Assembly: GCA_902806365.1 (NCBI GenBank)
Contig: CADCWJ010000488.1
Location: 1 to 31,723, forward strand
Source of the DNA: an uncultured Thermomicrobiales bacterium
GTDB lineage: Bacteria; Chloroflexota; Chloroflexia; Thermomicrobiales; UBA6265
Direction: 5' to 3'
Length of the DNA stretch: 31,723 nucleotides
In this document: piece by piece, positions 6,715 through 28,083 of the stretch
Position numbering within the stretch: the stretch's first letter is position 1
How the letters are laid out: each line of letters begins with the position of its first letter
The notes under the pieces: generated by a model
What the model was told of the DNA's origin: nothing
What the model saw: only the letters and a program-made list of their open reading frames with translations
The model's database searches: none
Translations under genes and position numbers: made by a program

Positions 6715-8906
6715 GTCCGGCTCCACAAGTCGCGTGCCGAGTTGAGCATCTTCTGGGTGTTGCGCCATGGGTCGCCATGACCGTTGGACGACGTACCGTA
6801 GATGCTTTCGATCTTGCGGCGCGTGTCATCGACGGCTTCGGGCTCGATCCCGTCGGCGAGGTTGCGAACATCCGCCAGGGCGGGAGCGCGATCGCCCATC
6901 AGCTTCTTAAGCGTGCGGTGAAGGGCATCCGCCGGGTCGCGCCGGGCGGCTTCGGACCCGAAAATACGCTGCCCGTAGACGCCGGGCAAGGTAGGCGGAT
7001 GCGGGAATGTCCCGAATAGTGGTGCCCGGAAGTGAGCGTGCCGCACCAGTAATCGACCCTTGGGCAGGCCCAGCAACTCCTGCTTTGCGGTCTCCGAGAT
7101 CGAGCGGTAGGCGGCGTTGATGATCTCCTCGTCGCCGACCCGTCCGTAGAACGATGTGCCGCAGTTGCCCAGGATCTCGCCATCCACCTTGGAGCGGAAT
7201 TGCTGGGCCCCGAGCAGTACCACATTGAGGTGACGCCCGCGGGCGGCGATATCCACCAGCGTGTCGCGGAGCCCTCCGTCGCCACCGGATGGTGCGTACT
7301 TGTTAAGCTCGTCGACGAACACGATCAGCTTGTCGACGCCCATCTCGCTGCGCTCGGCGAGCCGCCAGATTGTGTTGATCGTGGAGGTTACGATCAACTC
7401 CTGGGCGGTGGTGTTGCAATTCGAGATATCCACGACGCGAAGCTCGTGATTCGCGAAAGGGTGATCGACTCTCGGCTCGCTGCCAAAGTCGACCCCGCCC
7501 TCCGCCAGCAATCCACCCAGCTTGTCCTTGAGCCCCTTGAAGCGGTTCTGCGCCTTGCGGATCGTCGCCTTGTGGTGGCCATGCCAGTTGTCGGCCCGTT
7601 CATCGTTGGCGAAATGGGCGTTGATCTCGGCGAACTTTTCATTGAGAGCGGCCAGCGAGTCGATCTTCATCTCCCGCAGCTCGTAGATGAAGCCCCACAT
7701 CTTGTCGTCGAGATCGCTGAAATCGAAGACTTTGTGCGGAAAGGTGAGCGCGGTCTTGAGGGACCACAGGATTGGAAAGACGCGGTCCGTCTCTCCCGGC
7801 GCCTGCCGCGCCGTATTGAGCGCCTTGTGATCGCTAAACCCGTCGAGCCGGGCCGAGCCATTGATCGGCTGGGGGTCCATCCCCGGTCGGAAGGGCGCGA
7901 ACACCCGTGTTCCGTCGAACGGCTCGGGGCGCACCCCGAGCGACTCGTACGCCTTCAGGTCATCCGGTCCCAGGCCCTTCCAGTCGGCGGCCCGGTACGC
8001 GCTTTCGTGAACCGGGTCGGGCTGCGCTGGCTTGTCGAGCCAGAGCAGGTCCGGCCCCTTGACGTTGAACATGATCGCGGCAACCGATTTCTGCTCCCGC
8101 TCCATCGTCTGGAAGACCGAGCCGATCAGGAAGAGGGCGTGGCTCGTTTTCGTCGCCAGTCCCGATTGACCGGTCCAATTGGCGTGCCCCGCCTCCGGGC
8201 CGAGCAAATAGTCCTCATCGAGAAACAGCGGGGTCCGCTGGAACCGGGGACGCCCCGCATCATCGAGGAGAATCTCGCCGTCGTCGTCGCGCTCGTAGTT
8301 GCCGTTGGTGTGCATCAGCGCCGGAATCCCGGCCCCGGTGAAGTTGTGCGTGCCCAGCGCGAAGCGAATCGCGGTCTCGTTCGCGAAAAAGACCGGGCCG
8401 TTGACGGCCGGTCGGTGCGACTGCACGTCGTCGCGCAGGTGCCGCGTGGCGAGCACCTTGACGGTGAAGACCAGAATCTCTGGCCGCACGGTCGGGGCGC
8501 TCTGCGAAAGCGCGTGCTCCATGTGGCGATCGAAATAGTCGTCCAGGAATGACCGCAGATCGGAATAACGGCGTGGCTCGTCGACCACGCCGATTACCGC
8601 CGCCTGCTCCGAGAAGGCGACCACGATGTGTCCCACGTCGAGTGTTTGGGCGTCATCGCCCGCCCAGAAGAAGAACTCGTGCGAACCGGCGGGCTCCCGT
8701 TCGCTGCTCACGACACGGCCGATCACCCCCGTGTCGCGGTCGATCAGGTTCTGGAACGCTTCGTGATCCCAGGCCAGCGATGCCCGCTCCCCGGTATCGA
8801 CCGTGTCCTGCACCGGATCGAGGGGCACCTGTCCCGTCTCCATCGGCACGTGTTCTCGTTCAAGGCGGGCGAAGCCCGGTAGGGAAATGGATTCCCGCGT
8901 GGTCAT
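6711..8906 (-). CDS. herA: HerA (FtsK/HerA family) DNA translocase, 731 aa
   Basis: N-terminal HAS-barrel-like segment, variant Walker A GQSGLATKT, Walker B IVFVDELNKYAP and RGRHLNVVLLGAQQ. ATG at 8906 overlaps the nurA stop (ATGA). Confidence 0.9.
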   Translation of the reverse strand: MTTRESISLPGFARLEREHVPMETGQVPLDPVQDTVDTGERASLAWDHEAFQNLIDRDTGVIGRVVSSEREPAGSHEFFFWAGDDAQTLDVGHIVVAFSEQAAVIGVVDEPRRYSDLRSFLDDYFDRHMEHALSQSAPTVRPEILVFTVKVLATRHLRDDVQSHRPAVNGPVFFANETAIRFALGTHNFTGAGIPALMHTNGNYERDDDGEILLDDAGRPRFQRTPLFLDEDYLLGPEAGHANWTGQSGLATKTSHALFLIGSVFQTMEREQKSVAAIMFNVKGPDLLWLDKPAQPDPVHESAYRAADWKGLGPDDLKAYESLGVRPEPFDGTRVFAPFRPGMDPQPINGSARLDGFSDHKALNTARQAPGETDRVFPILWSLKTALTFPHKVFDFSDLDDKMWGFIYELREMKIDSLAALNEKFAEINAHFANDERADNWHGHHKATIRKAQNRFKGLKDKLGGLLAEGGVDFGSEPRVDHPFANHELRVVDISNCNTTAQELIVTSTINTIWRLAERSEMGVDKLIVFVDELNKYAPSGGDGGLRDTLVDIAARGRHLNVVLLGAQQFRSKVDGEILGNCGTSFYGRVGDEEIINAAYRSISETAKQELLGLPKGRLLVRHAHFRAPLFGTFPHPPTLPGVYGQRIFGSEAARRDPADALHRTLKKLMGDRAPALADVRNLADGIEPEAVDDTRRKIESIYGTSSNGHGDPWRNTQKMLNSARDLWSRT

Positions 8907-10509: not shown

Positions 10510-12018
<1,509 letters not shown>

Positions 12019-12135: not shown

Positions 12136-15100
12136 TTGGCACAATCGACCTCTTATGACCTGTCACGGGCCGTGTCTGAAGTCATGGCCGCCTTCCGCGA
12201 TCGGCCCCGGCCGAGAGCAACCTATCGCCTGCAGCTCAATCACGAGTTCACATTTCGGCAGGCCGAGGCGATCGCCCCCTATCTCGCGTCGCTGGGCGTA
12301 TCGCATGTATACGTCTCACCGATTCTGAAAGCGGTGCCTGGTTCGATGCACGGCTACGACGTCGTGGATTACGGGGTGCTCAATCCGGAGATCGGCACCC
12401 AAGGCGACTTCGATTCGTTCGTGTCCACATTGCACGGGCTGGACCTCAAGCTGATCGTCGACTTCGTTCCCAACCACATGGGAATCGAGAGCGGGCAGAA
12501 TGCCTGGTGGCAGGATGTGCTGGAACACGGAGAACAGTCCCCGTACGCTGGATATTTCGACATCGACTGGAGCCCGGTCAAGCAGGAAATTCGCGGCAAG
12601 GTGCTGTTGCCGTTTCTCGGTGATCAGTACGGCGCGGTGCTCGAACGGGGTGAGCTGAAGCTGGTTTTCGAGAATGGCGAGTTTCGGATCCATTACTGGG
12701 AACAGCCTTTGCCGATCTCGCCAGCGACGTACCCGCTGATCTTGCGACTCGTCGATGAACGACTTGAGGGGCAGATTGCTTCGGACGACCTCGAGCTTCT
12801 GGAGCTTCGGAGTGTGCGGACCGCGCTCGAACGCCTGGACAGCCTCCTCGATGCCGAAGAGCCGGCGACGCTGGAGACGCAGCGAGCAACCTGGCGGCAG
12901 GAACAGATCCTTGCCAAGCATCGCCTTAACGCGCTCTGCGAGCGATCGCTTCTGGTTGAAGAGGCCCTGACGGATGTCGTCACTGCGATGAATGGCGTTG
13001 TCGGCAAGTCGGCAACCTTCGATCTCCTGGACGATCTGCTCGATCACCAGCACTACCGCCTGAGTTCATGGCGCGTCGCCGCTGAGGAAATCAACTACCG
13101 GCGATTCTTCGCGATCAACTCCCTCGCCGCAGTCCGTCAGGAGATCCCCGAGGTTTTCGATGACGCTCATTGCTTCGTGGCAACCCTGATTGCGGATGGC
13201 CAGATCGATGGGCTCCGGATCGATCATCCGGACGGATTGTGGGACCCTGCGGAATACTTCCGGTCGTTGCAACGGCTGGTAGTCGAGGTGGCAGTGCGCC
13301 GGAGAATGAATCTCGACCGTTCCGCCCCCATGAGCGACGACGAGTGGGCTGAGAACCGCACCGCGGTGCGCTCCGAAATCGACGCGGCGCTCGATGGGCA
13401 GGCGGGAACTGGCGACCGCTGGCCACTCTATGTGGTCGCCGAGAAAATCCTGGAGCATGGGGAAACGCTGCGGGATGACTGGGCGGTCGCTGGCACCGTC
13501 GGGTACGAATTCGCCCAGGCAGCCACTGGCGTGTTCGTCGAGGGCGCGCATCGTCAGCGTTTTGATCGCCTGTACGCTCAGTACACCGGGGACCGCATCC
13601 GATTCAATGACCTTGTGTACGACATGAAGCAGCGGATGATGCAGGAGGCCTTCGCCAGTGAAGTCAACGTGCTGGCCCACGAGCTTAACCGGATCTCGGA
13701 GCAGGACCGGCACTTCCGAGACTTTACGCTCAACAATCTGCGCAACGCGCTGCGAGAAATCCTCGCCTGCTTTTCCGTCTATCGGACCTACACCACGACC
13801 GACGAACTCGCCGACGACAATCGCGACCGCCGGTACATTGAGAGCGCGGTGGCTCAGGCCAAGCGCCGGAATCCGGCTATCGACATGTCAGTGTTCGATT
13901 TCATTGCCGCGGTGATGTTGAGCGCGGTTCCGGAGGATCCGGCGGTTCCCTCGCGGGCACGGCGAAACCGGTTCTCCATGAAACTTCAGCAGTTGTCTGG
14001 ACCAGTGATGGCGAAGGGGCTGGAGGACACGGCCTTCTATCGCTTCAACCGCCTGGTGTCGCTAAACGAGGTCGGTGGCGATCCCAGCAGCTTTGGAATG
14101 GCGGTCGAGGAGTTCCATCGCCAGAACCAGGCCCGGCGCCGATCCTGGCCCTTTGCCATGATCAACTCGTCGACGCACGATACGAAGCGTGCTGAAGACG
14201 TCCGTGCGCGCATCTGTGTCCTCAGTGAGATCCCGGCGGAGTGGCGCGCCGCGCTCACGCGATGGAGCCGAGCGAACCGGAAACTGAAGCGCCGGGTGGA
14301 CGGTGTGCTGGCGCCGAGGCGCGCTGACGAGTACGTCCTGTATCAAACACTGGTCGGGACCTGGCCACTCCTGGAAACAGACGCCGATGGTTGGAAACGC
14401 TACGTGACGCGGGTACAGGAGTACGTCGTGAAGGTCGGCCGCGAGGCCAACCGGTTCACGAACTGGGTGAACCCGGACGAAGCGTACGAGGCGGCCCTGA
14501 CCGGGTTCGTGGCCGGGATCCTGGATTCCAGGAAGTCCCGCGCATTTCTCGCCGATTTCCAGGGGTTCATCGACCGTTTCGCCGACGCGGGCATGCGGAA
14601 CGCGCTCGGGCAGCAGGTCCTGAAGCTGACGTCACCAGGCGTTCCGGATCTCTACCAAGGCACGGAATTGTGGGACGACAGCCTGGTCGATCCTGACAAC
14701 CGACGCCCGGTTGATTTCGACGTCAGAGCGGCGTTGCTGGCCTCTGGTGACGGCGCGGCGTCGCTCTGGAATGCTCGGCGGAGTGGCACGGTCAAGCTGG
14801 CAGTGACGAAGACGCTTCTGGACGTGCGTGCCAGGCATCCGGACCTCTTTGCTGACGGTGATTACAAGCCGATCTCGATCAGCGGTGACCGGCAGCGCCA
14901 CGCCGTCGCGTTCTCGCGGCGGCGGGGACGCGAGCAAGCGATCGTGGTCGTGGCCCGGCTGACTGCGGGTCTCGATCCCGGTGATGGCGACGGCCCATGG
15001 GCGAATACCCGGATCGTCCTGCCCGACCACGCGGCGGATTCGCCCTTCACGGATGTGCTGACAGGTGCGACGCCGACCATCTCAACGGGCGACGACGGAC

Positions 15101-15189
15101 AGCCAACCCTGATGCTTTCGGAGCTTTTGTTCCCGCTGCCCGTTGCGGTCTTGCTGTCATCCGGGCCCGAGGAAGGAGATGCGGCGTGA
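12136..15189 (+). CDS. treY: Malto-oligosyltrehalose synthase (GH13), 1017 aa
   Basis: PRATYRLQL, GSMHGYDVVD, DFVPNHMG, GLRIDHPDGL, VAEKIL, STHDTKR and PGVPDLYQG. TTG start follows GGGAG. Confidence 0.96.
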   Translation: MAQSTSYDLSRAVSEVMAAFRDRPRPRATYRLQLNHEFTFRQAEAIAPYLASLGVSHVYVSPILKAVPGSMHGYDVVDYGVLNPEIGTQGDFDSFVSTLHGLDLKLIVDFVPNHMGIESGQNAWWQDVLEHGEQSPYAGYFDIDWSPVKQEIRGKVLLPFLGDQYGAVLERGELKLVFENGEFRIHYWEQPLPISPATYPLILRLVDERLEGQIASDDLELLELRSVRTALERLDSLLDAEEPATLETQRATWRQEQILAKHRLNALCERSLLVEEALTDVVTAMNGVVGKSATFDLLDDLLDHQHYRLSSWRVAAEEINYRRFFAINSLAAVRQEIPEVFDDAHCFVATLIADGQIDGLRIDHPDGLWDPAEYFRSLQRLVVEVAVRRRMNLDRSAPMSDDEWAENRTAVRSEIDAALDGQAGTGDRWPLYVVAEKILEHGETLRDDWAVAGTVGYEFAQAATGVFVEGAHRQRFDRLYAQYTGDRIRFNDLVYDMKQRMMQEAFASEVNVLAHELNRISEQDRHFRDFTLNNLRNALREILACFSVYRTYTTTDELADDNRDRRYIESAVAQAKRRNPAIDMSVFDFIAAVMLSAVPEDPAVPSRARRNRFSMKLQQLSGPVMAKGLEDTAFYRFNRLVSLNEVGGDPSSFGMAVEEFHRQNQARRRSWPFAMINSSTHDTKRAEDVRARICVLSEIPAEWRAALTRWSRANRKLKRRVDGVLAPRRADEYVLYQTLVGTWPLLETDADGWKRYVTRVQEYVVKVGREANRFTNWVNPDEAYEAALTGFVAGILDSRKSRAFLADFQGFIDRFADAGMRNALGQQVLKLTSPGVPDLYQGTELWDDSLVDPDNRRPVDFDVRAALLASGDGAASLWNARRSGTVKLAVTKTLLDVRARHPDLFADGDYKPISISGDRQRHAVAFSRRRGREQAIVVVARLTAGLDPGDGDGPWANTRIVLPDHAADSPFTDVLTGATPTISTGDDGQPTLMLSELLFPLPVAVLLSSGPEEGDAA

Positions 15190-17057
15190 GTGATGGCTGG
15201 CGGCCGGCAGCCGGCGCGAACGTTGGTTCTGGAGGGGTGGAGTTCAGGGTTTGGGCCCCGAACGCTGAATCGGCCGAGGCCGAGGTCGTGAGCCCCGAAG
15301 ACGTAGAGCCGAGGAGGGTGGCACTGGAGCGCGGAGCTGAAGGGTGGTTCCAGGGCGTGGACCCGCATGCTCGCGCAGGATCGCGCTATGGATTCCGGCT
15401 GGACGGACGGGCCGCCCTGCCTGATCCGTACTCGCGGTTCCAGCCGGACGGCGTGCACGGGCTTTCGGAGGTGATCGACCCGTTCGCCTATCGCTGGGGC
15501 GACGACGGGTGGACTGGCGTCGTAAGCGATAATCTGATCATTTACGAGCTCCATGTCGGCACGATGACCGGAGCCGGAACCTTTGAAGGTGTGATTGGTC
15601 AGCTCGACGCCCTTGTCGACCTCGGTATCAATCTGATTGAGCTCATGCCGGTTGCGCAATGCCCCGGAGATCGGAACTGGGGTTACGACGGCGTCGGCAT
15701 TTTCGCGCCCTCCCATGCCTATGGCCGCCCGGACGATCTTCGCTGGCTGGTAGACGAAGCGCACCGGCGGAAGATCTGGGTGATCCTCGACGTCGTCTAC
15801 AACCATCTCGGCCCGGAGGGGAACTACCTCCACGCCTATGCTGACGCCTACTTCACCGACCGGCACCCCACACCGTGGGGCGACGGGTTCAATTGGGACG
15901 GGCCGGCGAGCGAGCCGGTCCGGCAGTTCGCGATCGACAATGCGTGCTCCTGGGTCGCGGAATTCCATGTCGACGGGTTCCGGCTGGACGCCACGCATGC
16001 CCTGATCGACAACAGCCCGGTGCATATCGTGCAGGAGCTGACCGCACGTTCGCGGGAAGCTGCTGCACCGCGGTTGATCGTCGTCTTCGCGGAAGACGGT
16101 CGCCACGAGATCACCCGCGCCCGCTCCCTGGAGCGAGGTGGCGAAGGGCTCGACGGTATCTGGGCCGACGAGTTTCACCACGAGATGCGGGTGCTGCTGA
16201 CGAACGCCCGCGAGAACTACTACGCGTCCTATACCGGGACGACGACCGCGATCGGGACCGCCATCGCCACCGGGTTGGAGCAGGATTTCGCTGGGAAGGG
16301 CCATCCGGTCGGGACGCCGATCACCGCGGAAGACCCGGCTTCCGCGTTTGTCTTTTGCATCCAGAATCACGATCAGGTTGGGAACCGGCCATTCGGCGAC
16401 CGGCTCCACCACGAGATCAACCTCGACCGCTACCTGGTCGCCTCGGCCCTGCTCCTGTTTGCGCCCGAGACGCCGCTCCTGTTCATGGGGCAGGAATTCG
16501 CGGCGTCAACACCGTTTCTCTATTTCACCGACCACCCCGAGGAGCTTGGTCGCCTCGTCACGGAGGGGCGACGCAATGAGTTCGCCGGATTTCGGGCGTT
16601 CCACGATGAGCGGCTGCGCGAGACGATTCCCGATCCGCAGGCGGAGTCGACGTTCGTGCGCTCGAAGCTCGACCTCACCGACCGGGAGGTGAATGCAGGT
16701 GTCCTTCAGCTCTACACCTCGCTGATCCGGTTGCGGCGGAGCGACCAGGTGCTTCGGGTCAATGACCGCTCTCAGACGTCCGCCCATGGCGTGACCGCCG
16801 AAGTGGTGCTTGTTCACCGCTGGGCGGGTGACGAGCATCGCCTCCTGATCGCGAACTTCGGCAGCGCGATCACGTTACCGGTCGCAGGTGATGCCTGGCG
16901 CAATGTTCCCGGGCTGGAAACGGCCGAGCTGATGTTCTCGACGTCGGACCGGCGATTCGGCGGAACCCCCGGCACGCCGCTGGTCGAGCGGCATGGAACA
17001 CGCTGGATGGTCACCGTACCGGGCCGGTCGGCGGCGATCTGGTCGCTTACCACATAG
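15186..17057 (+). CDS. treZ: Malto-oligosyltrehalose trehalohydrolase (GH13), 623 aa
   Basis: FRVWAP, PDPYSRFQPDGVHG, YELHVGT, NWGYDG, DVVYNHLGP, GFRLDATHA, QNHDQVGNR and FMGQEF. GTG at 15186 overlaps the treY stop (GTGA) and has AGGAG upstream. Confidence 0.96.
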   Translation: MSDGWRPAAGANVGSGGVEFRVWAPNAESAEAEVVSPEDVEPRRVALERGAEGWFQGVDPHARAGSRYGFRLDGRAALPDPYSRFQPDGVHGLSEVIDPFAYRWGDDGWTGVVSDNLIIYELHVGTMTGAGTFEGVIGQLDALVDLGINLIELMPVAQCPGDRNWGYDGVGIFAPSHAYGRPDDLRWLVDEAHRRKIWVILDVVYNHLGPEGNYLHAYADAYFTDRHPTPWGDGFNWDGPASEPVRQFAIDNACSWVAEFHVDGFRLDATHALIDNSPVHIVQELTARSREAAAPRLIVVFAEDGRHEITRARSLERGGEGLDGIWADEFHHEMRVLLTNARENYYASYTGTTTAIGTAIATGLEQDFAGKGHPVGTPITAEDPASAFVFCIQNHDQVGNRPFGDRLHHEINLDRYLVASALLLFAPETPLLFMGQEFAASTPFLYFTDHPEELGRLVTEGRRNEFAGFRAFHDERLRETIPDPQAESTFVRSKLDLTDREVNAGVLQLYTSLIRLRRSDQVLRVNDRSQTSAHGVTAEVVLVHRWAGDEHRLLIANFGSAITLPVAGDAWRNVPGLETAELMFSTSDRRFGGTPGTPLVERHGTRWMVTVPGRSAAIWSLTT

Positions 17058-20658: not shown

Positions 20659-21549
20659 CTACTGCGCGGTGGCGTGCTTTCCGAGTCCTTCCGGCGCCGG
20701 GCTGCCTCGGACCAGACCGGTGATGGCGATCAGGGTCAACAGGTAGGGAAGCGCGACGAGCAAATCTGATGAGACCGGAAAATTGGAGGTCGCCTGCGCC
20801 TGTATCTGCACCGCCGCCGCGGCGCCGAACAGCAGCGTCGCCCCCAAGGCTCCAAAAGGAGTCCAGCCGCCGAAGATGACGGCGGCGAGGGCGATGAAGC
20901 CGCGACCGGCGGTCATGTCCAACGTAAAGTAGGAGAGATCACCGATCGACAGGAAGGCGCCGCCGAGTCCGGCCAACACGCCGCTCAGGATGACCGCGAC
21001 ATAGCGATTGCGGGCGACATCGATGCCAACGCTCTCGGCCGCCTGCGGATGCTCTCCCGCCGCCAGCACGTGCAGTCCCTGGCGCGTTCGGAATAACCCG
21101 ACGTAGACAAGGGGCACCAGCAGCAGGGCGACCGGGATGAGGACGTTGAGCCCGCCAAGGAAGCCCAGATCGGGCAGGCGCTCGACGGAATCCGTGCCAC
21201 CTGCCTTGCCCCAGATCAGCTGGATCAGGAACGCGGTCAGCCCGGCGGCGATCAGGTTGACCGCGGTCCCGGCGACGATCTGGTTCGCCCGCAGCGTGAT
21301 GCACCAGAAGGCGTGGATGGCGCCCGCGACACCGGCGGCGAAGACCCCGAGCAGCAGGCCGAGCCAGGGATTCCCTGTCCAGTGGGTACCCGCGACAGCG
21401 AAGAAAGCGCCAGTCAGCATCATCCCTTCGAGCGCGATGTTGACGACCCCGGAGCGCTCGGAAATCAGCCCGCCCATTGCCGCGAAGATCAGGGGCGTCG
21501 CCATGCGCAGGGTGGCGGAAAGCAACGCCAGGGTGAAAAAGTCGCTCAC
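20659..21549 (-). CDS. ABC transporter permease (nucleoside/BMP-type, second permease)
   Basis: SERSGVVNIALEGMML, AAGEHPQAAESVGIDV, GRGFIALAAVIFG and LPYLLTL. Confidence 0.92.
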   Translation of the reverse strand: MSDFFTLALLSATLRMATPLIFAAMGGLISERSGVVNIALEGMMLTGAFFAVAGTHWTGNPWLGLLLGVFAAGVAGAIHAFWCITLRANQIVAGTAVNLIAAGLTAFLIQLIWGKAGGTDSVERLPDLGFLGGLNVLIPVALLLVPLVYVGLFRTRQGLHVLAAGEHPQAAESVGIDVARNRYVAVILSGVLAGLGGAFLSIGDLSYFTLDMTAGRGFIALAAVIFGGWTPFGALGATLLFGAAAAVQIQAQATSNFPVSSDLLVALPYLLTLIAITGLVRGSPAPEGLGKHATAQ

Positions 21550-21573
21550 AGGAAACCCTCGTGCTACGGGGGG

Positions 21574-22701
21574 TCAGCGCGTCGGCGAGCCCGGCGCGGT
21601 CTCGATTCCGGACCCGCGCGAGGGAGAACGATCGCGCCCGGATGGTGCCGCCGGGTCGATCAGCTTGCGGAAGAAGGGTAACCGGTTGATGGCCTCGAAG
21701 GCGGCGACCGCGAAGATGACCAGACCCTGAAGCACCAGCACGATCTCCCGGCTCACATCCGATTGACTCTGCATCGCGGGCGCACCGGCGCTGAGGAATC
21801 CAAACAGGAGCCCGGAGAAAATGATCCCAAACGGATGGTTCCGCCCCACGAGTCCGACCGCAATCGCCGTGAAGCCCAACCCCGGCGGCGCGCCACTGTG
21901 CCGGCCGTGGAGCCCCAGCGTCTCGCCCGCTCCGGCCAGACCGCCGAGCAACCCGGCGACACCCATCGCGATCGCGATCGTCCTGCCCCAGTGAATCCCG
22001 CCGTACGTGGCCGCGCCGCGCGAAAGGCCGACGGTTCGGATGTTGTATCCAAAGGTCGTCCGGAACAGGACGTACCACAGCACCAGCGCCGCCACCAGGG
22101 CGATCAGCACGCCCGCGTGAAGCCGAGTCCGCTCGAGCAGGATCGGCAGCCGGGCCCCGTCGAGGACCCGGTTCGTGCCCTGGACCTGAGGATCGACCGG
22201 CAGCCACCCGGATTGTTTCTGGATCGAGTAAGTGATGAGTCGGAAAGCGAGGTAGTTCAGCATGATCGTGGTGATCACTTCATGCGCGCCGGTGGCCGCC
22301 TTCAGGATCCCCGGGATCAGGCCCCAGACGCCCCCCGCGAGCGCGGCGCTGAAGACCGCGAGTGGCAGGTGCAGCGCCGCTGGCAGGCCCATGTCAAGCG
22401 AACCGATCAGGCCGGCCGCAAAACCACCCATCACGAGCTGTCCCTCGATCCCGATATTGAACAGCCCGGCTCGCGCCGCGATTCCGAAGGAGAGCCCGCC
22501 AAGGATCAACGGGGCGGCGTAGACCAGCGTTTCCGCCCGGCCCCGGCGGGAACCAAGCGCCCCCTCGGCTAGGGCCCGGTAGGCTTCCCACGGGTTGTGC
22601 CCAGCGATTGCGATGACGATTGCGCCGACCGCCAGCGCGACCACGACGGCAAGCACCGACCCCGCCACATTGACCAGCGCCGCGCCGGGTCGCGCGCCCA
22701 T
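21574..22701 (-). CDS. ABC transporter permease (nucleoside/BMP-type, first permease)
   Basis: GLFNIGIEGQ, AHEVITTIMLNY, GFTAIAVGLVGRNHP. ATG at 22701 overlaps the ATPase stop (TGATG); TTG at 22704 is an alternative start. Confidence 0.92.
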   Translation of the reverse strand: MGARPGAALVNVAGSVLAVVVALAVGAIVIAIAGHNPWEAYRALAEGALGSRRGRAETLVYAAPLILGGLSFGIAARAGLFNIGIEGQLVMGGFAAGLIGSLDMGLPAALHLPLAVFSAALAGGVWGLIPGILKAATGAHEVITTIMLNYLAFRLITYSIQKQSGWLPVDPQVQGTNRVLDGARLPILLERTRLHAGVLIALVAALVLWYVLFRTTFGYNIRTVGLSRGAATYGGIHWGRTIAIAMGVAGLLGGLAGAGETLGLHGRHSGAPPGLGFTAIAVGLVGRNHPFGIIFSGLLFGFLSAGAPAMQSQSDVSREIVLVLQGLVIFAVAAFEAINRLPFFRKLIDPAAPSGRDRSPSRGSGIETAPGSPTR

Positions 22702-24269
22702 CAATCGGCTGCCTGCGCCGGGACGGCGTTGATCGCGCGGCCACCCATCAGCAAGCCAAGCTCGGAGCGGGAGACATCGGCGCTGGCGAACTCGCCCACG
22801 ATCCTGCCGTCGAACAGGACGATGATCCGATCGCTGAGGTCGAGCACTTCGTCCAGGTCGAATGAGAGCAGGAGAACCGCCTTGCCCGCGTCCCGCGTTT
22901 CGATCAGGCTGCGGTGGACGAATTCGATCGCCCCAACATCGAGCCCGCGCGTCGGCTGGATCGCGAGGACGATTCCCGGCTCGCGTTGAAGCTCGCGCGC
23001 AATGATCAGCTTTTGCTGATTGCCGCCGGACAGCGTGCGGGCGGGCACCGCTGGTGACGGCGCGCGAACATCGAACAGGGACATCAGCTTGCGGGTCAGT
23101 GACCGGATCATGCCACCATTGATCCGGCCGTTCCTGGTGAACCCCCGCCGCTCGGTGTTGCCCAGCAGGACGTTCTCCCAGAGCGGAAAATCGAGCACCA
23201 GCCCACGACCGTGACGATCCTCCGGAATGTAGGAGATCCCGGCCCGCCGGAACGCGGTTGCCCCTTCACCCGCGACCTGTTTCCCACCGACGACCAGCGA
23301 GCCGGACGCCGGTGGACGGAGGCCGGAGAGCACCTCGACCAACTCGGTCTGCCCGTTTCCTTCGATACCGCAGACTCCCAGAATCTCGCCTTGCCGGAGC
23401 TCGATCCGGGCGACATCCAGAGTGACCCGGCCATGCTTGCCGACGCACCGCAGGTCCGTTCCAAGGAGGACGGTGTCTCCCGGTCTGGCCGAGCCGCGGT
23501 CCACCCGGAGCAGCACCTCGCGGCCGACCATGAGCTCCGCCAGTTCATCGGCAGAGGTCTCGCCGGTGATCCGCGTGCCGATCGTCTTCCCGCGCCGGAT
23601 TACGGTCACCCGGTCGCTGATCGCGGCGATCTCCTTGAGCTTATGGGTGATGAAGATGATCGTTCCGCCGGCCGCCTTGAGCCGGTTGAGGATCACGTAG
23701 AGGTCGTCGATCTCCTGCGGAGTCAGGAGAGCCGTCGGTTCGTCCATGATCAGGATCCGGCTGCCGAGATAAAGTGCGCGCAGGATTTCGACGCGCTGCT
23801 GCATCCCCACCGGCAGGTCGCCCACGAGGGTTCCCGGATCGACTTCCAGACCGTACGAGGCCCCCAACTCGGCTACCCGTCGCTCTGCGGCCGCGCGGTC
23901 GAGGAGGGGTCCGGAGCCTTCGTTGCCCAGGATCACGTTCTCGGCGACCGTAAACCGGGGGATCAGCATGAAGTGCTGATGAACCATCCCGAGTCCGGCT
24001 TCAACAGCCTGGCGCGTGCCGTGGAAATGAACCGGGGCGCCGTTCACGAGAATCTCGCCTTCATCGGGCGTATACAGCCCGAAAAGGAGATTCATCAGCG
24101 TCGATTTTCCGGCCCCATTCTCGCCGACGAGCGCGTGGATCTCGCCCACACGCACCTCGAAATTGACACCGTCGTTGGCGACGACGCCCGCAAAGCGCTT
24201 GACAACATTCCGCATCTCTACCGCGAGCGGAATGGTCTGGGACTGGGACGGATTCAACGAGTCAGCCAT
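22701..24269 (-). CDS. ABC transporter ATPase with two fused NBDs (CUT2/nucleoside type)
   Basis: GENGAGKS, HQHFML, ILIMDEPT, FITHKL, LSGGNQQK and QPTRGLDVGA. Confidence 0.95.
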   Translation of the reverse strand: MADSLNPSQSQTIPLAVEMRNVVKRFAGVVANDGVNFEVRVGEIHALVGENGAGKSTLMNLLFGLYTPDEGEILVNGAPVHFHGTRQAVEAGLGMVHQHFMLIPRFTVAENVILGNEGSGPLLDRAAAERRVAELGASYGLEVDPGTLVGDLPVGMQQRVEILRALYLGSRILIMDEPTALLTPQEIDDLYVILNRLKAAGGTIIFITHKLKEIAAISDRVTVIRRGKTIGTRITGETSADELAELMVGREVLLRVDRGSARPGDTVLLGTDLRCVGKHGRVTLDVARIELRQGEILGVCGIEGNGQTELVEVLSGLRPPASGSLVVGGKQVAGEGATAFRRAGISYIPEDRHGRGLVLDFPLWENVLLGNTERRGFTRNGRINGGMIRSLTRKLMSLFDVRAPSPAVPARTLSGGNQQKLIIARELQREPGIVLAIQPTRGLDVGAIEFVHRSLIETRDAGKAVLLLSFDLDEVLDLSDRIIVLFDGRIVGEFASADVSRSELGLLMGGRAINAVPAQAAD

Positions 24270-24275
24270 TGCGGC

Positions 24276-24281
24276 ATTCTA
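24276..24281 (-). promoter_or_regulatory. -10 hexamer TAGAAT 6 nt upstream of the ATPase ATG (possible leaderless promoter)
   Basis: The minus strand reads TAGAAT-GCCGCA-ATG, with no Shine-Dalgarno before the ATG. Confidence 0.4.
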
Positions 24282-24288
24282 CACACAA

Positions 24289-24316
24289 ACAGGGAGCCGG
24301 TTGCCCGGCTCCCTGT
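24289..24316 (-). terminator. Intrinsic terminator-like hairpin after the binding-protein gene
   Basis: Perfect 12-bp stem ACAGGGAGCCGG/CCGGCTCCCTGT with a GCAA (GNRA) loop on the minus strand, followed by TTGTGT. Confidence 0.7.
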
Positions 24317-24331
24317 CACGCGTAAAAGACC

Positions 24332-25456
24332 CTAACTGACCGGCGAGGCGGCCGGAGACGCTTCTGGCGAACCTACCGGCGACGCGACCGGCGTGGCGGC
24401 GCCCTCGATCGGCGTCGGCCGGAACGCGGCCAGCTCCTCGTCCGTGGCTGGCGGGACGATCACACCGTCGAGGATCGCCTGCTTGTATGCCATCACGGTC
24501 TCGATGATCGCCGGATCGACGGTCGAGTCGAAGGCATAGATGTCGATTCCTTCTTCGGCGATGCCGAGATTATCGGTCGTGCCGCCGGGAAACGAGCCCT
24601 CGACGAGGAATTGCGTCGCCTCGAAGAAGCCCGTATCGACCCCCTTGCGAGCGGCCCCGAGCTGCCGGCCCGGTCCGAGATGCGACTGATCCGTATCAGC
24701 GGCGATGACCCAGAACCCCGCACCGCGCTCGTTCGCCGCGTCGAACGAGCCGACTCCCGTTCGGCCGGCGATCGGGAAGACGACATCGGCATTGTTGTTG
24801 TACTGGGCGAGTGTGAGCTCCTTGCCCAGCGCCGGGTCCTCGAAGTTGTCGGCGTACGAAATCAATACCTCGATGTCCGGATTGATCGATCGCGCTCCGG
24901 CGACGTAGCCGACCTCGTAGCGGAGCACCGGGGGAACGCGGATGCCGCCAACGACGCCGAGCACCCCGGTCTGGCTGGCAAGGGCGCCGAGCACACCGGC
25001 CAGGAATCCGCCCTCCTGCTCGCGGAACACGATGGAATACACATTGGGCTGCTCGACGACGCCGTCCAGGATCGCGAAGGAACTGTCCGGAAACTGCGGT
25101 GCCACTTCCGCCACCGCGTCACCCAGCAGCGCACCGACGGCAATCGTGAGCTGACCCGCCTCGGCGCCGGCGGTGAGATTGGGCACGTAGTCGGCCTGCG
25201 TCTGGCTCTCCTGGATCTCGAACGTTACGCCGAGTTCCTCGGCTGCCCGGTCTCCCCCGAGCTTCGCAAGGTCGTTGAAGTTCTGGTCGCCGATGCCGGC
25301 GGTGTCGGTCACCATCGTGACCGTGATGTCGGACCCGTCCTGGGCCGCTGCGCTGGTCGCCATTGCCAGTACGCTTGTACCGAGCACGGCGCCCGACGAA
25401 GCGGCGATCAGGCGACGCCGGTTAAGGCGTGAGTCCATGCGTGAAATGCCCGCCAT
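24332..25456 (-). CDS. BMP-family ABC substrate-binding protein with a Tat signal, 374 aa
   Basis: DTAGIGDQNFN, FREQEGGFLAG, PPVLRYEVGY, FEDPALGKE, WVIAADTDQ. N-terminal NRRRLI...SAAA-QD with no lipobox Cys. ATG at 25456 follows GGGAGGG. Confidence 0.92.
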   Translation of the reverse strand: MAGISRMDSRLNRRRLIAASSGAVLGTSVLAMATSAAAQDGSDITVTMVTDTAGIGDQNFNDLAKLGGDRAAEELGVTFEIQESQTQADYVPNLTAGAEAGQLTIAVGALLGDAVAEVAPQFPDSSFAILDGVVEQPNVYSIVFREQEGGFLAGVLGALASQTGVLGVVGGIRVPPVLRYEVGYVAGARSINPDIEVLISYADNFEDPALGKELTLAQYNNNADVVFPIAGRTGVGSFDAANERGAGFWVIAADTDQSHLGPGRQLGAARKGVDTGFFEATQFLVEGSFPGGTTDNLGIAEEGIDIYAFDSTVDPAIIETVMAYKQAILDGVIVPPATDEELAAFRPTPIEGAATPVASPVGSPEASPAASPVS

Positions 25457-25557
25457 CGAGATTCCCTCCCTGTCGTGTGGCCCGCCACATGTCGCCGCCG
25501 GGCCACTCTCCGTTTCCAACGATGTTGCGTGCGATCCGCCGGATGAGCTTCCAGCAC

Positions 25558-25566
25558 ATGGTACCA
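25558..25566 (-). promoter_or_regulatory. Extended -10 candidate for the ABC operon
   Basis: TG-G-TACCAT on the minus strand, about 100 nt upstream of the BMP ATG. Confidence 0.35.
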
Positions 25567-25585
25567 GCATCGACCGTCCCGCCGA

Positions 25586-25622
25586 GGCGACACTAGTCGC
25601 CCAAGTCGTGCAATTTGCACGA
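25586..25622. promoter_or_regulatory. Two adjacent palindromes (candidate operators) in the divergent promoter
   Basis: GGCGAC-ACTA-GTCGCC (25586-25601) and the perfect TCGTGCAA-T-TTGCACGA (25606-25622). Confidence 0.45.
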
Positions 25623-25662: not shown

Positions 25663-27189
25663 ATGTCCGACAACCCCGCGCGCCTTAACCTGTTGACCTA
25701 CCTGCCGCGCAGCTCAACCCCGGCGGGAGCCACCCCGGATACCCGGCCGGCGACCGTATCCGACCCTCCAAAATCGGTGGACGAGGCACTCTGGCTGGTG
25801 CTCGCGGCTCATGTCACCGGGCTCCGGCGCTCCGGAGTTCTGGAGGACGCGGCGCTGCTGATGATCGCGCGAGCCCTCGACATGGCGAGTGCGGCGACCT
25901 CCGGCGATGACGGCCTTCCCTGGCGTCGCGCCACCGCGCTCGACGAGCGCGTCGAGGCGTTCCTGCCTGACTCCCTCTCGGGGGCGGCGACACTGGGCCT
26001 GGCCCGGGAGGAATGGCTGGCGACGGTCGTGCGCGTCCTGCTCCGGGACGCATCGCTCGCCATCCTGAGCGAGGTCGCCGAAATCAGCGCGATTGCCCTG
26101 ACTCTCGCCGACGCGCACACGCTGACCGTGATGTCGGCGTTCACCGGTGGCAGGCCTGCCCAGCCAACGACCCTAGGGCACTATCTTGGCGGGCTGCTCA
26201 GCCCACTCCGGACGACGAGGCGGCGGATGACCGACGCCTTCTCGGCCCTCAACCGGAGTCCACTCGGTGCGGGCGTGCTGGCCGGCGACGTGATTGCCGC
26301 CGATCGGGAGGATCTGGCCGATCGGCTCGGTTTCCTGGCCCCGGTGCCGAACACACTTGATGCCCTGATGGGCGTCGAAGATATCGTTGCATCCGTCGAG
26401 ACCGTGATCGCGGCGCTGGCCACGATCCATCGGCTGGTGCGCGACATGCTCGTCTGGATCCGCACCGACCCGACGAGCTTCGTGTTGGACGAGGGCTGGT
26501 TCTCGCTGCCCGAGCCTGCGCTGCCGACGCTTGTGCGATCGGAGCGGCTCGAATTGCTCGACAGCAGTCTGGCGCAGTCGGTCGCGGGTCTTTCCAGTGT
26601 CGTCCTGCGATTGCGCGCCGTACCGTACGGACCGTTGGGGGCGGCCATTGCTGTCCCGTTCGCACTCACCCAAACCCTGCGGCAGGAAGTGATGCCCCTC
26701 CTGGCCGAAAGCGGAGCATTCATTCGCGAGGGCCTGATCGTCAACCGCGCCTACCTGGGGAACCGTGCCGGTCGCGGCTACACCACGGCCGGCGACCTGG
26801 CGGCATTTCTGATGACCGAGGAGCAGGTGCCGCCCGCCCCGGCGCGCCGCATTGCCGTGCTCGTCCTCAGCCAGCTCCAGAAGGCCGGGCTGGAGGTGAG
26901 CGGGATCACGCAGGACATGATCGACACCGCCGCGCTGTTGACGATCGGCCGGGAGATCAAGGTCGAGATCGAACCGCTGGGACGATTCCTCGCGCCCCGC
27001 CGCTTTCTGGAGCGTCGGGAGGTGACCGGCTCTCCAGCGCCAGCGATGACGCGGGCATGGCTGGCCGACGAACGGTCCGCGCTCGAACAGGATCGAGCGT
27101 GGATGGATGAGACGACCGCCCGGATTTCCACCAGAACCGCCACACTTTCCAGTGCAATCGCGGACGCTGCCTCGCAGGACCAGGACTGA
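25663..27189 (+). CDS. Argininosuccinate lyase-like protein (fumarase/lyase fold) with degenerate catalytic motifs, 508 aa
   Basis: Colinear with ArgH in scaffold positions (AQPTTLGH, LNRSPLGAGVLAG, DRE.LADRLGF, N.LDA, GYTTAGDLAAFL, RREVTGSPAP), but SRND, THLQ and SSxMPQKKNP are all replaced. Confidence 0.8.
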   Translation: MSDNPARLNLLTYLPRSSTPAGATPDTRPATVSDPPKSVDEALWLVLAAHVTGLRRSGVLEDAALLMIARALDMASAATSGDDGLPWRRATALDERVEAFLPDSLSGAATLGLAREEWLATVVRVLLRDASLAILSEVAEISAIALTLADAHTLTVMSAFTGGRPAQPTTLGHYLGGLLSPLRTTRRRMTDAFSALNRSPLGAGVLAGDVIAADREDLADRLGFLAPVPNTLDALMGVEDIVASVETVIAALATIHRLVRDMLVWIRTDPTSFVLDEGWFSLPEPALPTLVRSERLELLDSSLAQSVAGLSSVVLRLRAVPYGPLGAAIAVPFALTQTLRQEVMPLLAESGAFIREGLIVNRAYLGNRAGRGYTTAGDLAAFLMTEEQVPPAPARRIAVLVLSQLQKAGLEVSGITQDMIDTAALLTIGREIKVEIEPLGRFLAPRRFLERREVTGSPAPAMTRAWLADERSALEQDRAWMDETTARISTRTATLSSAIADAASQDQD

Positions 27190-27207: not shown

Positions 27208-28083
27208 TCAGACGCCGTCCCGGAGCCTCGCGAGCACCATCAGGGCCGATGCGGTGATACTCGGTCGCCAGGCGTCATCGTAGGTCGAGGGCCAACCGCC
27301 GTCTGCCACCACTTCATCCAGCAAGCGGTCCGCCTGCCGCGAGAGTGTCCCTTCCGGGATGCGTTGAACGAGGTCGGGGCCACCACCCAGCGCGAGATCG
27401 AAGAAGTGCCCGGCGTCGGCGAACCGGTCGCCCTCCGCATGCTCGCTCACATGCCGGCCAACGGCATCCAGCCAGGTGGCCCGGTCAGGAACATCATCGA
27501 CGCCACCGAGGTATTCGACGTACGGCAGGAGGGTGTAGAAATCGCCGCTCGCCACATCGTCCAGCGATGCCTTCGCGGCGAACAGCCGCGCCACCCGCTC
27601 CCGCATCTCCGAAGTGGCGATGCCGAGCCGGTTTGCGTGCCCGGCCAGGCAGCAGGATGGATTGAGGCTGGGGAAGGTCCACGCCGCAAACCAGGGCGGC
27701 AATTCACCGGCGTAGACCGCGTCCGAAAAGTGCCAATCACCATCGGGGGCCTGATTGTCCTTGAGCCAGGCGTCAAGGCGGTCGACCATCGGAGAATCCG
27801 GACGATCCCGCAGCGAGAGCATGCTCGCCATCGCCAGGCGCGCCGCAAACGGATTGCTCGCGGGCGCCTTGATGTCCACTTCGAGACCGCGGCCAAAGCC
27901 ACCGTCCTCGTTCTGGTACGTCGAGAGTTCAGCCAGCACGTCGCTCGCGGGGCCGTCGTACCAGTGGTATCGCACAAGTGCCATCCCGAGTGGGAATTGC
28001 CGCTCGTGCAGGAATTCGAGGGCAGGATCGACCAGGGAACGTGCGCGAGTTGCTTGCCGGGTACTTAACTGGAAATGGGTCAT
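27208..28083 (-). CDS. Conserved hypothetical protein, prenyltransferase/squalene-cyclase-like (alpha/alpha)-toroid repeats
   Basis: QW-like repeats YQNEDGGFG, NQAPDGDW and VADGGWP. GGAGAGG Shine-Dalgarno. Confidence 0.6.
   Translation of the reverse strand: MTHFQLSTRQATRARSLVDPALEFLHERQFPLGMALVRYHWYDGPASDVLAELSTYQNEDGGFGRGLEVDIKAPASNPFAARLAMASMLSLRDRPDSPMVDRLDAWLKDNQAPDGDWHFSDAVYAGELPPWFAAWTFPSLNPSCCLAGHANRLGIATSEMRERVARLFAAKASLDDVASGDFYTLLPYVEYLGGVDDVPDRATWLDAVGRHVSEHAEGDRFADAGHFFDLALGGGPDLVQRIPEGTLSRQADRLLDEVVADGGWPSTYDDAWRPSITASALMVLARLRDGV

What the first reader, a model, noticed from the sequence alone, without database searches (positions are those of the whole stretch)
25663..27189. 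Full-length ArgH paralog that has lost all three catalytic regions: a candidate bacterial pseudoenzyme
Seen, by alignment to the intact ArgH in this window: HTARSRNDQVAT becomes TLGLAREEWLAT, GYTHLQRAQP becomes AFTGGRPAQP (catalytic His to Gly, 26146-26148), and TGSSIMPQKKNPD becomes FSLPEPALPTLVRSE (Ser loop and Lys lost, about 26500-26544). Scaffold residues and the 508-aa frame are intact, with no stops or frameshifts. Established: the fumarase/ASL superfamily needs the SSxMPxKxN loop for beta-elimination, and delta-crystallin shows this fold can be co-opted for non-enzymatic roles. Inference: a retained non-catalytic protein acting as a metabolite sensor, a regulatory subunit in mixed ArgH tetramers, or a scaffold, or else an enzyme with new chemistry.
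Basis: partly seen in the sequence, partly recalled or inferred. Interest (0 to 1): 0.72.

Follow-up and report, generated by a model that had tools for sequence, protein, structure and literature searches.

The report
Catalytically dead lyase-fold protein family
This gene encodes a well-conserved copy of an argininosuccinate/EDDS-lyase-type enzyme that has lost every residue needed for catalysis yet is kept under purifying selection across a family of soil Thermomicrobiales bacteria, so it is a genuine bacterial pseudoenzyme whose job is still unknown.

Summary
Window 25663-27189(+) is an intact 508-aa lyase-fold ORF in which the SRND motif, the catalytic His and the Ser loop are all replaced, as is the ArgH-specific YNKDLQEDK segment.

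It is not decaying:
- dN/dS is 0.20-0.23 overall and 0.06-0.09 in the C-terminal domain.
- Full-length loop-less relatives go down to about 31% identity.
- All named genome records that hold it are Chloroflexota, mostly labelled Thermomicrobiales.

It is not a recent duplicate of the window's ArgH (26% identity). It belongs to the EDDS-lyase-like branch. It is the relocated ortholog of a lineage-specific gene that normally lies between lgt and hflX. At that position, different families of the order carry a catalytic-looking, a half-degenerate or a fully degenerate version.

Conservation has moved from the active-site regions to domain 3. A homodimer model passes its controls, but similar complexes are already solved.

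My best reading is a non-catalytic homo-oligomeric binding or scaffold protein. New chemistry is not excluded. A role in mixed ArgH tetramers has no support.

This scan reached the same reading earlier on an hflX-adjacent copy in another genome (e1-3890214). New here are the relocation, the N-terminal motif, the domain-3 selection and the positional series.

The parts
25663..27189 (+). CDS of the degenerate lyase-fold protein (called pASL here; 508 aa, P0001), clade A
   Evidence: Translation has no stop. Lyase_1 scores 57 bits. Orthologs of 507-510 aa share the same start. dN/dS is 0.20-0.23.
25663..25710 (+). Clade-A-specific N-terminal short motif, residues 1-16, of the form M-[ST]-D-x-x-A-R-x-N-L-L-[ST]-[YF]-[LI]
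   Evidence: Alignment of N-termini. Present in Bmp-linked copies and absent from lgt-linked copies. Conservation index is 0.50 against 0.22 for the following linker.
25711..25779 (+). Variable, predicted disordered linker (residues 17-39)
   Evidence: pLDDT is below 50 for residues 11-32. It is the least conserved segment, 0.22.
25990..26025 (+). Remnant of conserved region C1 (TLGLAREEWLAT in place of the SRND motif)
26137..26166 (+). Remnant of region C2 (AFTGGRPAQP; catalytic His replaced by Gly162 at 26146-26148)
26500..26544 (+). Remnant of region C3: the Ser loop GSSxMPxKxN is replaced by a proline-rich FSLPEPALPTLVRSE
   Evidence: The position aligned to catalytic Ser280 of EDDS lyase holds no Ser (PMC6973171).
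26623..26634 (+). Family motif PYGP, replacing the Y-N-K-D-L-Q-E-D-K substrate-binding segment of ArgH. It lies in the modelled subunit interface.
26737..27072 (+). Domain 3 (residues 359-470), the best conserved and most strongly selected part (motifs NRAGRG, EEQ, LAPRRFLERR, GSPAP)
   Evidence: Conservation is 0.69 against 0.52 in catalytic relatives. dN/dS is 0.06-0.09 against 0.20-0.25 for domains 1+2. Invariant columns are listed.
27073..27189 (+). C-terminal long helix (residues 471-508) shared with EDDS lyase, plus the stop codon
   Evidence: Full-length alignment to 6g3d, residues 48-502. Helix 460-504 in the model.
25606..25622 (.). Perfect palindrome TCGTGCA-ATT-TGCACGA, 41 bp upstream of the start codon; a candidate operator
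   Evidence: Both arms are conserved and the spacer varies in the two closest orthologous loci. It is the only exact copy in the 3.37-Mb assembly, and 2-mismatch hits are no more frequent than the control.
10510..12018 (+). Intact housekeeping ArgH of the same genome, used as comparator
   Evidence: TIGR00838 scores 592 bits against a cut-off of 279.5, and all motifs are present.
20659..25456 (-). Divergently transcribed BMP/PnrA-type ABC transporter operon (binding protein, ATPase, two permeases). This is the flank that defines the clade A context.
   Evidence: Pfam. The arrangement is conserved in clade A loci.
27208..28083 (-). Convergent neighbour U291 (291 aa, prenyltransferase/squalene-oxidase-repeat-like, no Pfam family above threshold). 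Its stop codon lies 18 bp from the pASL stop.
   Evidence: Adjacency is seen in most clade A loci and in five clade B loci.

Best explanation
The gene encodes a retained, catalytically dead member of the aspartase/fumarase superfamily, from its ASL/EDDS-lyase-like branch. It keeps the three-domain helical fold and most likely the homo-oligomeric (tetramer-type) assembly. It has lost the Ser-loop base, the His, and the Arg/Asn/Lys residues that hold the dicarboxylate, so it cannot carry out the superfamily's beta-elimination. It descends from a Thermomicrobiales-specific gene located between lgt and hflX. In the window's lineage that gene moved next to a BMP-type ABC transporter operon and acquired a short conserved N-terminal motif on a flexible linker. 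Shown: selection now acts hardest on the C-terminal domain 3 and, within clade A, on the remodelled interface segments. Inferred: the protein therefore works by binding a partner protein or a new ligand, with an oligomeric core presenting several copies of a conserved, Arg/Glu-rich domain 3 and, in clade A, tethered N-terminal docking peptides. The partner or ligand is unknown.
For: Loss of the catalytic apparatus:
- All signature regions are replaced.
- Ser280 is the catalytic base in the closest solved relative (PMC6973171).

The gene is retained:
- dN/dS against two orthologs of about 80% identity is 0.20-0.23. The neighbouring transporter and XDH-like genes give 0.04-0.09.
- Domain 3 gives 0.06-0.09.
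- The loop-less clade is monophyletic (SH-aLRT 100) and spans 31 cluster representatives in the tree.
- 49 of 66 sampled genomes of the window's family have a hit of 440 bits or more, and all five such hits I checked by motif lack the loop.

Fold and assembly:
- TM to EDDS lyase is 0.80-0.83.
- The homodimer model scores 0.77 against a best control of 0.15. That mark was reached by 20 of 30 proteins solved as pairs of one chain and by 1 of 23 solved as single chains. The runs agree in at least 88% of contacts and the partner's pLDDT is at least 87.
- Similar tetramers are solved, so this pass may reflect likeness only.

Shift of constraint:
- C1, C2 and C3 score 0.57, 0.58 and 0.43, against 0.70, 0.78 and 0.72 in catalytic relatives.
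- Domain 3 scores 0.69 against 0.52.

Origin:
- Catalytic-looking (family f4, genus g50), half-degenerate (f3) and fully degenerate (f1) versions all lie directly upstream of hflX.
- Together they lie on one side of a branch with 99 SH-aLRT support that sets them apart from the other ASL-like proteins.
- Their argH-model scores fall in the order 293, 162, 152 and 112 bits.
- The window's own genome has lgt followed by hflX with neither the gene nor a relic between them.
Against:
- Part of the domain-3 and C1/C2/PYGP conservation is explained simply by subunit contacts in the model. That fits a purely structural constraint and does not prove a binding surface.
- Within clade A the remodelled cleft segments are highly conserved (C1 0.81, C2 0.76, against 0.62 overall). 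They have gained invariant acidic residues (E117, E284), which would also suit a new ligand or catalytic site.
- The contexts (lgt, hflX, an AIRS-family gene, the BMP transporter) are functionally unrelated to one another and may be plain synteny.
Confidence: 0.6

Rival explanations
1. It is an enzyme with new chemistry. The remodelled cleft, formed at the subunit interface and now carrying conserved Glu, Trp and Pro residues in place of Ser, His, Lys and Asn, would bind a different (for example cationic) substrate and catalyse a reaction that does not need the Ser loop.
For: Within clade A the former C1 and C2 segments are more conserved than the protein average (0.81 and 0.76 against 0.62). 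Invariant E117, W279, E284, P288, G323 and P324 lie in or near the old site. Each lost motif is replaced by a family-specific motif rather than by random sequence.
Against: Across the whole loop-less clade (A plus B) these segments are only average or below (0.57, 0.58, 0.43), and few cleft residues are invariant: G112, P168 and P288. The cleft motifs differ between clades A and B, which is unexpected for one conserved reaction. The same segments are subunit contacts in the model. Every characterized member of the superfamily uses the SS loop (PMC11880804). There is no conserved pathway-like gene neighbourhood.
Confidence: 0.22
2. It is a regulatory or poisoning subunit that forms mixed tetramers with the housekeeping ArgH (or with PurB or AspA/FumC) and so tunes arginine or purine metabolism.
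For: Active sites in this superfamily are built from three subunits, so a dead subunit could in principle modulate activity. The genome also holds ArgH, PurB and an aspartase/fumarase-type protein. From established knowledge, closely related delta-1 and delta-2 crystallins form heterotetramers.
Against: Identity to ArgH is only 26%, and the clade is separated from ArgH by long branches. The gene is never seen beside arg or pur genes in the 60-odd loci examined; its contexts are lgt-hflX or the BMP transporter. The modelled homodimer interface is confident on its own. Heteromers were not tested.
Confidence: 0.05
3. It is a decaying pseudogene or an annotation artefact in a GC-rich genome.
For: The match to Lyase_1 is weak. 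High-GC DNA has many long spurious ORFs.
Against: Full-length orthologs exist down to about 31% identity with conserved length. dN/dS is 0.2 overall and 0.06-0.09 in domain 3. The fold model is confident.
Confidence: 0.01

Closest known systems
EDDS lyase of Chelativorans sp. BNC1 (PDB 6g3d-6g3i, 6rx8) and the uncharacterised ~500-aa 'argininosuccinate lyase family' proteins around it
   Same: Same length (508 aa). The alignment runs end to end (residues 48-502), including the domain-3 insertion, the RRE-x-G-x-PAP segment and the long C-terminal helix. It is the best structural match, TM 0.80-0.83.
   Different: EDDS lyase has the GTSSIMPQKKNP loop with Ser280 as base (PMC6973171), the His of C2 and the SRND motif. 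The window protein has none of them. Sequence identity is only about 22-23%.
Argininosuccinate lyase ArgH (TIGR00838), e.g. the copy at window 10510-12018
   Same: Same superfamily and three-domain fold. Scaffold motifs are kept (PLGxGxLAG, LGF, xQP, the helix-bundle residues).
   Different: It scores 112 bits against a cut-off of 279.5. All catalytic and substrate-binding segments are replaced. It belongs to a different clade and lies in no arginine context.
Delta-1 crystallin of birds (an ASL recruited as a lens protein)
   Same: An ASL-fold tetramer used for a non-enzymatic role. It is among the top structural matches, TM about 0.74-0.76.
   Different: From established knowledge, delta-1 crystallin is more than 90% identical to active delta-2/ASL and keeps the catalytic residues; its inactivity comes from a few N-terminal and loop changes. 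Here the whole catalytic apparatus has been rewritten. The protein is bacterial and is conserved as its own old family.
The hflX-adjacent degenerate lyase copy reported earlier in this scan (note e1-3890214, another Thermomicrobiales genome)
   Same: Same family and same reading: a dead EDDS/ASL-type lyase under purifying selection, lineage-specific, of unknown role. I reproduced the hflX linkage independently.
   Different: The window's copy is the relocated clade A form. It sits beside a BMP ABC transporter operon rather than lgt-hflX, and it has an added N-terminal motif and linker.

Membership tests
Argininosuccinate lyase (ArgH, TIGR00838 equivalog) | Score at or above the curated cut-off of the equivalog model | tested here: not met
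   112.4 bits against a cut-off of 279.5. The window's true ArgH scores 591.9.
Argininosuccinate lyase (ArgH, TIGR00838 equivalog) | C1 S-R-N-D motif, C2 T-H (catalytic His), C3 G-S-S-x-M-P-x-K-x-N loop, and the Y-N-K-D-L-Q-E-D-K segment | tested here: not met
   All four are replaced.
Aspartase/fumarase superfamily (Pfam Lyase_1, PF00206) | Significant match to the family model | tested here: met
   57 bits against a gathering score of 27, but only over residues 111-273.
Aspartase/fumarase superfamily (Pfam Lyase_1, PF00206) | Three-domain, mainly helical fold with a central five-helix bundle | tested here: met
   AF2 model with pLDDT 84.6. Foldseek gives 299 PDB hits at E<=1e-3, and the 50 best listed are all EDDS lyase, argininosuccinate lyase or delta-crystallin, at TM 0.70-0.83.
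Aspartase/fumarase superfamily (Pfam Lyase_1, PF00206) | SS loop GSSxxPxKxN, reported as present in all characterized members (PMC11880804) | tested here: not met
   The loop reads SLPEPALPTL. It is absent from every member of the clade examined.
Aspartase/fumarase superfamily (Pfam Lyase_1, PF00206) | Homotetramer through the helix bundle | tested here: inconclusive
   The two-copy model scores 0.77 against a best control of 0.15, with helix-bundle contacts. Only a dimer was modelled, and the pass may come from likeness to solved tetramers. Needs SEC-MALS.
EDDS-lyase-like ~500-aa subfamily | End-to-end similarity including the domain-3 insertion and the C-terminal helix | tested here: met
   phmmer E 2e-28 over residues 48-502. 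Best fold match.
EDDS-lyase-like ~500-aa subfamily | Catalytic Ser280 and fumarate-binding residues; C-N lyase activity | tested here: not met
   No Ser at the aligned loop. Activity itself cannot be tested with these tools.
Pseudoenzyme (homolog of an enzyme that lacks the catalytic residues but is maintained by selection) | Catalytic residues absent, the gene under purifying selection, and conserved across species | tested here: met
Pseudoenzyme (homolog of an enzyme that lacks the catalytic residues but is maintained by selection) | Experimentally shown lack of activity | not testable with these tools
   Needs purified protein and assays.

The most novel reading that the evidence does not exclude
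The family is the first branch of the aspartase/fumarase superfamily that works without the Ser loop. One possibility is an enzyme with new chemistry in a charge-inverted cleft (E117/E284 in clade A). The other is a dedicated non-catalytic factor whose conserved domain 3 acts on a housekeeping machine encoded next to its ancestral position, such as the ribosome-associated GTPase HflX or lipoprotein maturation by Lgt.
Probability: 0.2. Interest if true: 0.75.

Novelty: new variant of a known kind. Interest (0 to 1): 0.5.

Why it matters
- Bacterial pseudoenzymes are poorly catalogued. In this superfamily the Ser loop is treated as universal, so a whole family-wide lineage that has rewritten all catalytic regions and still evolves under strong constraint is a clean natural case of an enzyme fold repurposed.
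- The catalytic-looking, half-degenerate and fully degenerate versions at one chromosomal position offer a stepwise series for studying how catalysis is lost and what replaces it.
- On the practical side, some sources label these proteins 'argininosuccinate lyase'. That label would mislead metabolic reconstructions of Thermomicrobiales genomes assembled from metagenomes.

Tried and rejected
- **Fused forms.** The 857-860-aa 'fused' forms (P0129, P0131) looked like Rosetta-stone fusions. Their N-terminal 380 aa have no Pfam domain and lie antisense to a BMP gene (225 bits), so they are miscalled starts.
- **Two copies per genome.** I first read as showing that many genomes carry both a clade A and a clade B copy. 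A motif check of 60 fetched hits showed that the 220-350-bit 'second copies' are catalytic EDDS-lyase-like paralogs or the half-degenerate type. No genome examined had A and B together, and one (G140) has two A copies.
- **U291 as a partner.** U291 is adjacent in most clade A loci and in five clade B loci. Those B loci are the ones closest to clade A, so inherited synteny explains the pattern. I did not pursue it.
- **Regulon.** I searched the genome for the upstream palindrome to find co-regulated genes. It is the only exact copy, near-matches are not above the control, and it is not conserved in more distant clade A loci.
- **Relic at the ancestral site.** No trace of the gene lies between lgt and hflX in the window's genome.
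- **RNA elements.** Rfam and the promoter/terminator scans found nothing around the gene.
- **Literature.** No paper in the library links Thermomicrobiales with argininosuccinate lyase, and none describes a bacterial ASL-type pseudoenzyme.
- **Short hits.** The short 'stand-alone domain 3' hits are gene fragments. One (P0179) is a read-through into hflX and is probably an artefact.
Full report
**1. Observation**

Window 25663-27189(+) is an uninterrupted 508-codon frame. Pfam sees only a partial Lyase_1 match (57 bits, residues 111-273) and no ASL_C2 domain. The ORF at 10510-12018(+) is a full ArgH (Lyase_1 268 bits plus ASL_C2). The NCBIfam argH equivalog gives 112 bits for the target and 592 for the true ArgH, against a cut-off of 279.5.

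The coordinates are exact:
- Gly162, replacing the C2 His, is codon 26146-26148.
- The replaced Ser loop, residues 280-294, is nt 26500-26544.

A fourth ArgH substrate-binding segment (LAYNKDMQEDK) is also replaced, by VPYGPLGAAI.

**2. Fold and nearest relatives**

The best solved relative by sequence is the 508-aa EDDS lyase (6g3d and related entries; E 2e-28). It aligns end to end, residues 48-502, including the long C-terminal helix. ArgH and delta-crystallins follow.

An AlphaFold2 model built on 36 family members has pLDDT 84.6 and pTM 0.83. It superposes on EDDS lyase at TM 0.80-0.83 and on ASL/delta-crystallins at about 0.74.

In EDDS lyase, Ser280 of the loop is the catalytic base (PMC6973171). 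[quoted passage not shown] The target has a proline-rich stretch with no Ser at that place.

**3. It is a conserved family, not a decaying gene**

- The word-indexed search returned 234 relatives, with full-length proteins of 500-510 aa down to 45% identity among the 120 listed. Some sources label them 'argininosuccinate lyase', others 'lyase family protein' or hypothetical.
- The exhaustive representative search found 76 clusters at E<=1e-30. Every full-length member above about 190 bits lacks the SRND motif, the His and the Ser loop.
- A pattern scan of 185,579 species genomes returned 55 loci. All but one (labelled only 'bacterium') are MAGs named Chloroflexota, Chloroflexia, Thermomicrobia, Thermomicrobiales or Sphaerobacteraceae.
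- Against two orthologs of about 80% identity, dN/dS is 0.20-0.23. The neighbouring transporter and XDH-like genes give 0.04-0.09, and U291 and the WYL regulator give 0.17-0.25.
- By region, domains 1+2 give 0.20-0.25, domain 3 (residues 359-470) gives 0.06-0.09, and the N-terminal tail and C-terminal helix give 0.2-0.37.

**4. Phylogeny and positional history**

In a quick ML tree of 69 proteins the loop-less proteins form one clade (SH-aLRT 100, stem length 0.54). The window's subgroup, clade A, is nested inside it with support 99.

Two gene contexts exist:
- Clade A (44-56% identity to the target) lies divergent from a BMP/PnrA-type ABC transporter operon. It is convergent with a 291-aa gene (U291), which is followed by a WYL regulator and a HelY-like helicase.
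- Clade B (31-42% identity) lies lgt -> gene -> hflX -> AIRS-family gene, with 4-bp overlaps between lgt and the gene in two called loci.

A half-degenerate group, clade I, has lost the Ser-Ser pair and the His but keeps Q-P-Q-R-x-D-P. It also sits directly upstream of hflX. So does a catalytic-looking type that keeps S-x-N-D, T-H, S-S and M-P-Q-K-E-N-P.

These three types plus clade A lie together on one side of a branch with 99 support that separates them from all other ASL/EDDS-like proteins. Their argH-model scores fall stepwise: 293, 162, 152 and 112 bits.

In the window's own genome, lgt is followed directly by hflX, with no copy or relic between them. The Pfam search of that genome finds only four Lyase_1 genes: an AspA/FumC-type, PurB, ArgH and the target. 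The window copy is therefore best read as the relocated ortholog, not an extra paralog.

**5. Distribution in the order**

I searched 151 sampled genomes of the order and corrected the result by motif inspection of 60 fetched hits.

| Group | Result |
|---|---|
| Window's family, f1 (66 genomes) | 49 have a hit of 440 bits or more, a range in which all five hits I inspected lack the loop. 8 more have fragments at contig ends or a copy with an internal stop. 9 have none, including all four genomes of genus g4. |
| Family f3 (20 genomes) | 10 carry the half-degenerate type. |
| Family f4, genus g50 (2 genomes) | Both carry the catalytic-looking type. |
| Other genomes | Only ArgH and/or a catalytic EDDS-lyase-like paralog. 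|

These tallies include one unpublished genome (G095, a 562-bit hit). No sequence from it is used or shown, and removing it changes 49 of 66 to 48 of 65.

**6. Where the constraint lies**

The table gives an entropy-based conservation index for 31 loop-less cluster representatives and 25 catalytic relatives.

| Segment | Loop-less clade | Catalytic relatives |
|---|---|---|
| C1 | 0.57 | 0.70 |
| C2 | 0.58 | 0.78 |
| C3 | 0.43 | 0.72 |
| Domain 3 | 0.69 | 0.52 |

- Invariant or nearly invariant residues cluster in domain 3: N361, R362, N367, R368, T375, D378, E386, E387, D421, E431, E435, E437, P445, R446, R447, E450, R451, R452 and G456.
- Within clade A alone (108 full-length proteins), C1 (0.81), C2 (0.76) and domain 3 (0.83) all exceed the mean of 0.62. 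Invariant residues there include E117, W279, E284, P288, G323 and P324.
- The old anion-binding site has therefore lost Arg, Lys and Asn and gained Glu in clade A.

**7. Assembly**

A two-copy model of residues 40-508, using the family alignment, scored 0.77 against a best control of 0.15. That mark was reached by 20 of 30 proteins solved as pairs of one chain and by 1 of 23 solved as single chains. The runs agree in at least 88% of contacts and the partner's pLDDT is at least 87.

The interface uses the helix bundle (residues 173-264), the C1, C2 and PYGP segments, and parts of domain 3 (378-395, 448-458). Because ASL and EDDS-lyase tetramers are solved, this pass shows likeness rather than proof. 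It also shows that part of the conservation in section 6 may be purely structural.

**8. Clade A additions and local features**

- Clade A proteins carry a conserved N-terminal peptide (M-[ST]-D-x-x-A-R-x-N-L-L-[ST]-[YF]-[LI], with variants such as D-[LI]-R-A-N-L), followed by a variable, low-confidence linker of about 25 residues. lgt-linked copies lack it.
- Forty-one bp upstream of the start lies a perfect palindrome, TCGTGCA-N3-TGCACGA. Its arms are conserved and its spacer varies in the two closest loci. It is unique in the assembly and is not conserved in more distant loci.

**9. Interpretation**

Shown:
- The protein is real, conserved and lyase-fold.
- It lacks all residues the superfamily uses for beta-elimination.
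- It is not derived from the local ArgH.
- It is a relocated member of an hflX-linked lineage.
- Its strongest constraint is in domain 3.

Inferred:
- It assembles like its relatives.
- It acts by binding rather than catalysis, possibly with domain 3 and, in clade A, the tethered N-terminal peptide as contact elements.

New chemistry in the remodelled, acidified cleft cannot be excluded (about 0.2). Mixed tetramers with ArgH have no support (about 0.05). Decay is refuted.

**10. Relation to earlier notes of this scan**

A follow-up on another genome (e1-3890214) described an hflX-adjacent copy and reached the same reading. Another first-reader note (e1-4335086) flagged a third copy. I reproduced the hflX linkage independently.

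New in this report:
- the relocation of the window's copy;
- the mutual exclusivity of clades A and B in the genomes examined;
- the three-state positional series, with motif checks;
- the domain-resolved dN/dS;
- the clade A N-terminal motif;
- the homodimer model.

Noticed in passing
window 25606-25622: Perfect 7-3-7 palindrome TCGTGCA-ATT-TGCACGA, 41 bp upstream of the pASL start. Its arms are conserved and its spacer varies in the two closest orthologous loci, and it is unique in the 3.37-Mb assembly. It is a likely single-target operator for an unknown regulator.
   Followed up: partly
window 27208-28083 (-): A 291-aa protein with no Pfam family above threshold. Its language-model neighbours are 'prenyltransferase and squalene oxidase repeat' proteins of Actinomycetota and Chloroflexota. 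It is convergent with pASL, with only 18 bp between the stop codons and no terminator-like hairpin, so transcripts may overlap.
   Followed up: partly
L013:238-2811 (P0129) and P0131: Public 857-860-aa 'lyase' proteins are gene-call artefacts. The first ~380 residues are read antisense to a BMP binding-protein gene (L013:64-1218, minus strand, Bmp 225 bits).
   Followed up: yes
G000 contig C322 (L079:1623-4751): In the window's own genome lgt is followed directly by hflX and an AIRS-family gene. The slot that holds the degenerate lyase in related genera is empty and has no relic.
   Followed up: yes
L075:9796-11277 and neighbours (genome G034); also L077: Many Thermomicrobiales carry a separate, catalytically intact EDDS-lyase-like paralog (QIARSRNDL / GITHTQPAQP / SSIMPQKRNP). 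In G034 it lies beside an ABC permease and a luciferase-like monooxygenase, and may be a real C-N lyase of unknown substrate.
   Followed up: partly
L102 (G130:C25:192459-193860) = L062: One genome has a loop-less copy split into two pieces, with a TGA between them and a frame change. This is either a truly broken copy or an assembly error.
   Followed up: no
P0179 (335 aa, metagenome): A called protein runs from domain 3 of a degenerate lyase straight through the intergenic stretch into the N-terminal domain of HflX. It is probably a read-through or frameshift artefact, but it illustrates how tightly the two genes abut.
   Followed up: no
window 2684-6768 (-): An SMC/SbcC-Rad50-like ATPase (944 aa) and an Mre11-like metallophosphoesterase (417 aa) overlap in one minus-strand operon with two upstream ORFs that have no Pfam hit.
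   Followed up: no
window 12136-17057 (+): Two long alpha-amylase-family ORFs (1017 aa and 686 aa, the second with CBM48) overlap by about 190 bp in different frames. This could be a frameshift, a fusion, or two real glycogen/trehalose-type enzymes.
   Followed up: no
window 24332-25570 (-): The mechanical ORF for the BMP binding protein (412 aa) is about 40 residues longer than its orthologs (362-376 aa). The true start is probably near 25456, which gives a divergent intergenic region of about 206 bp that is 84% identical among three genomes, more than expected from dS of about 0.55-0.6.
   Followed up: partly
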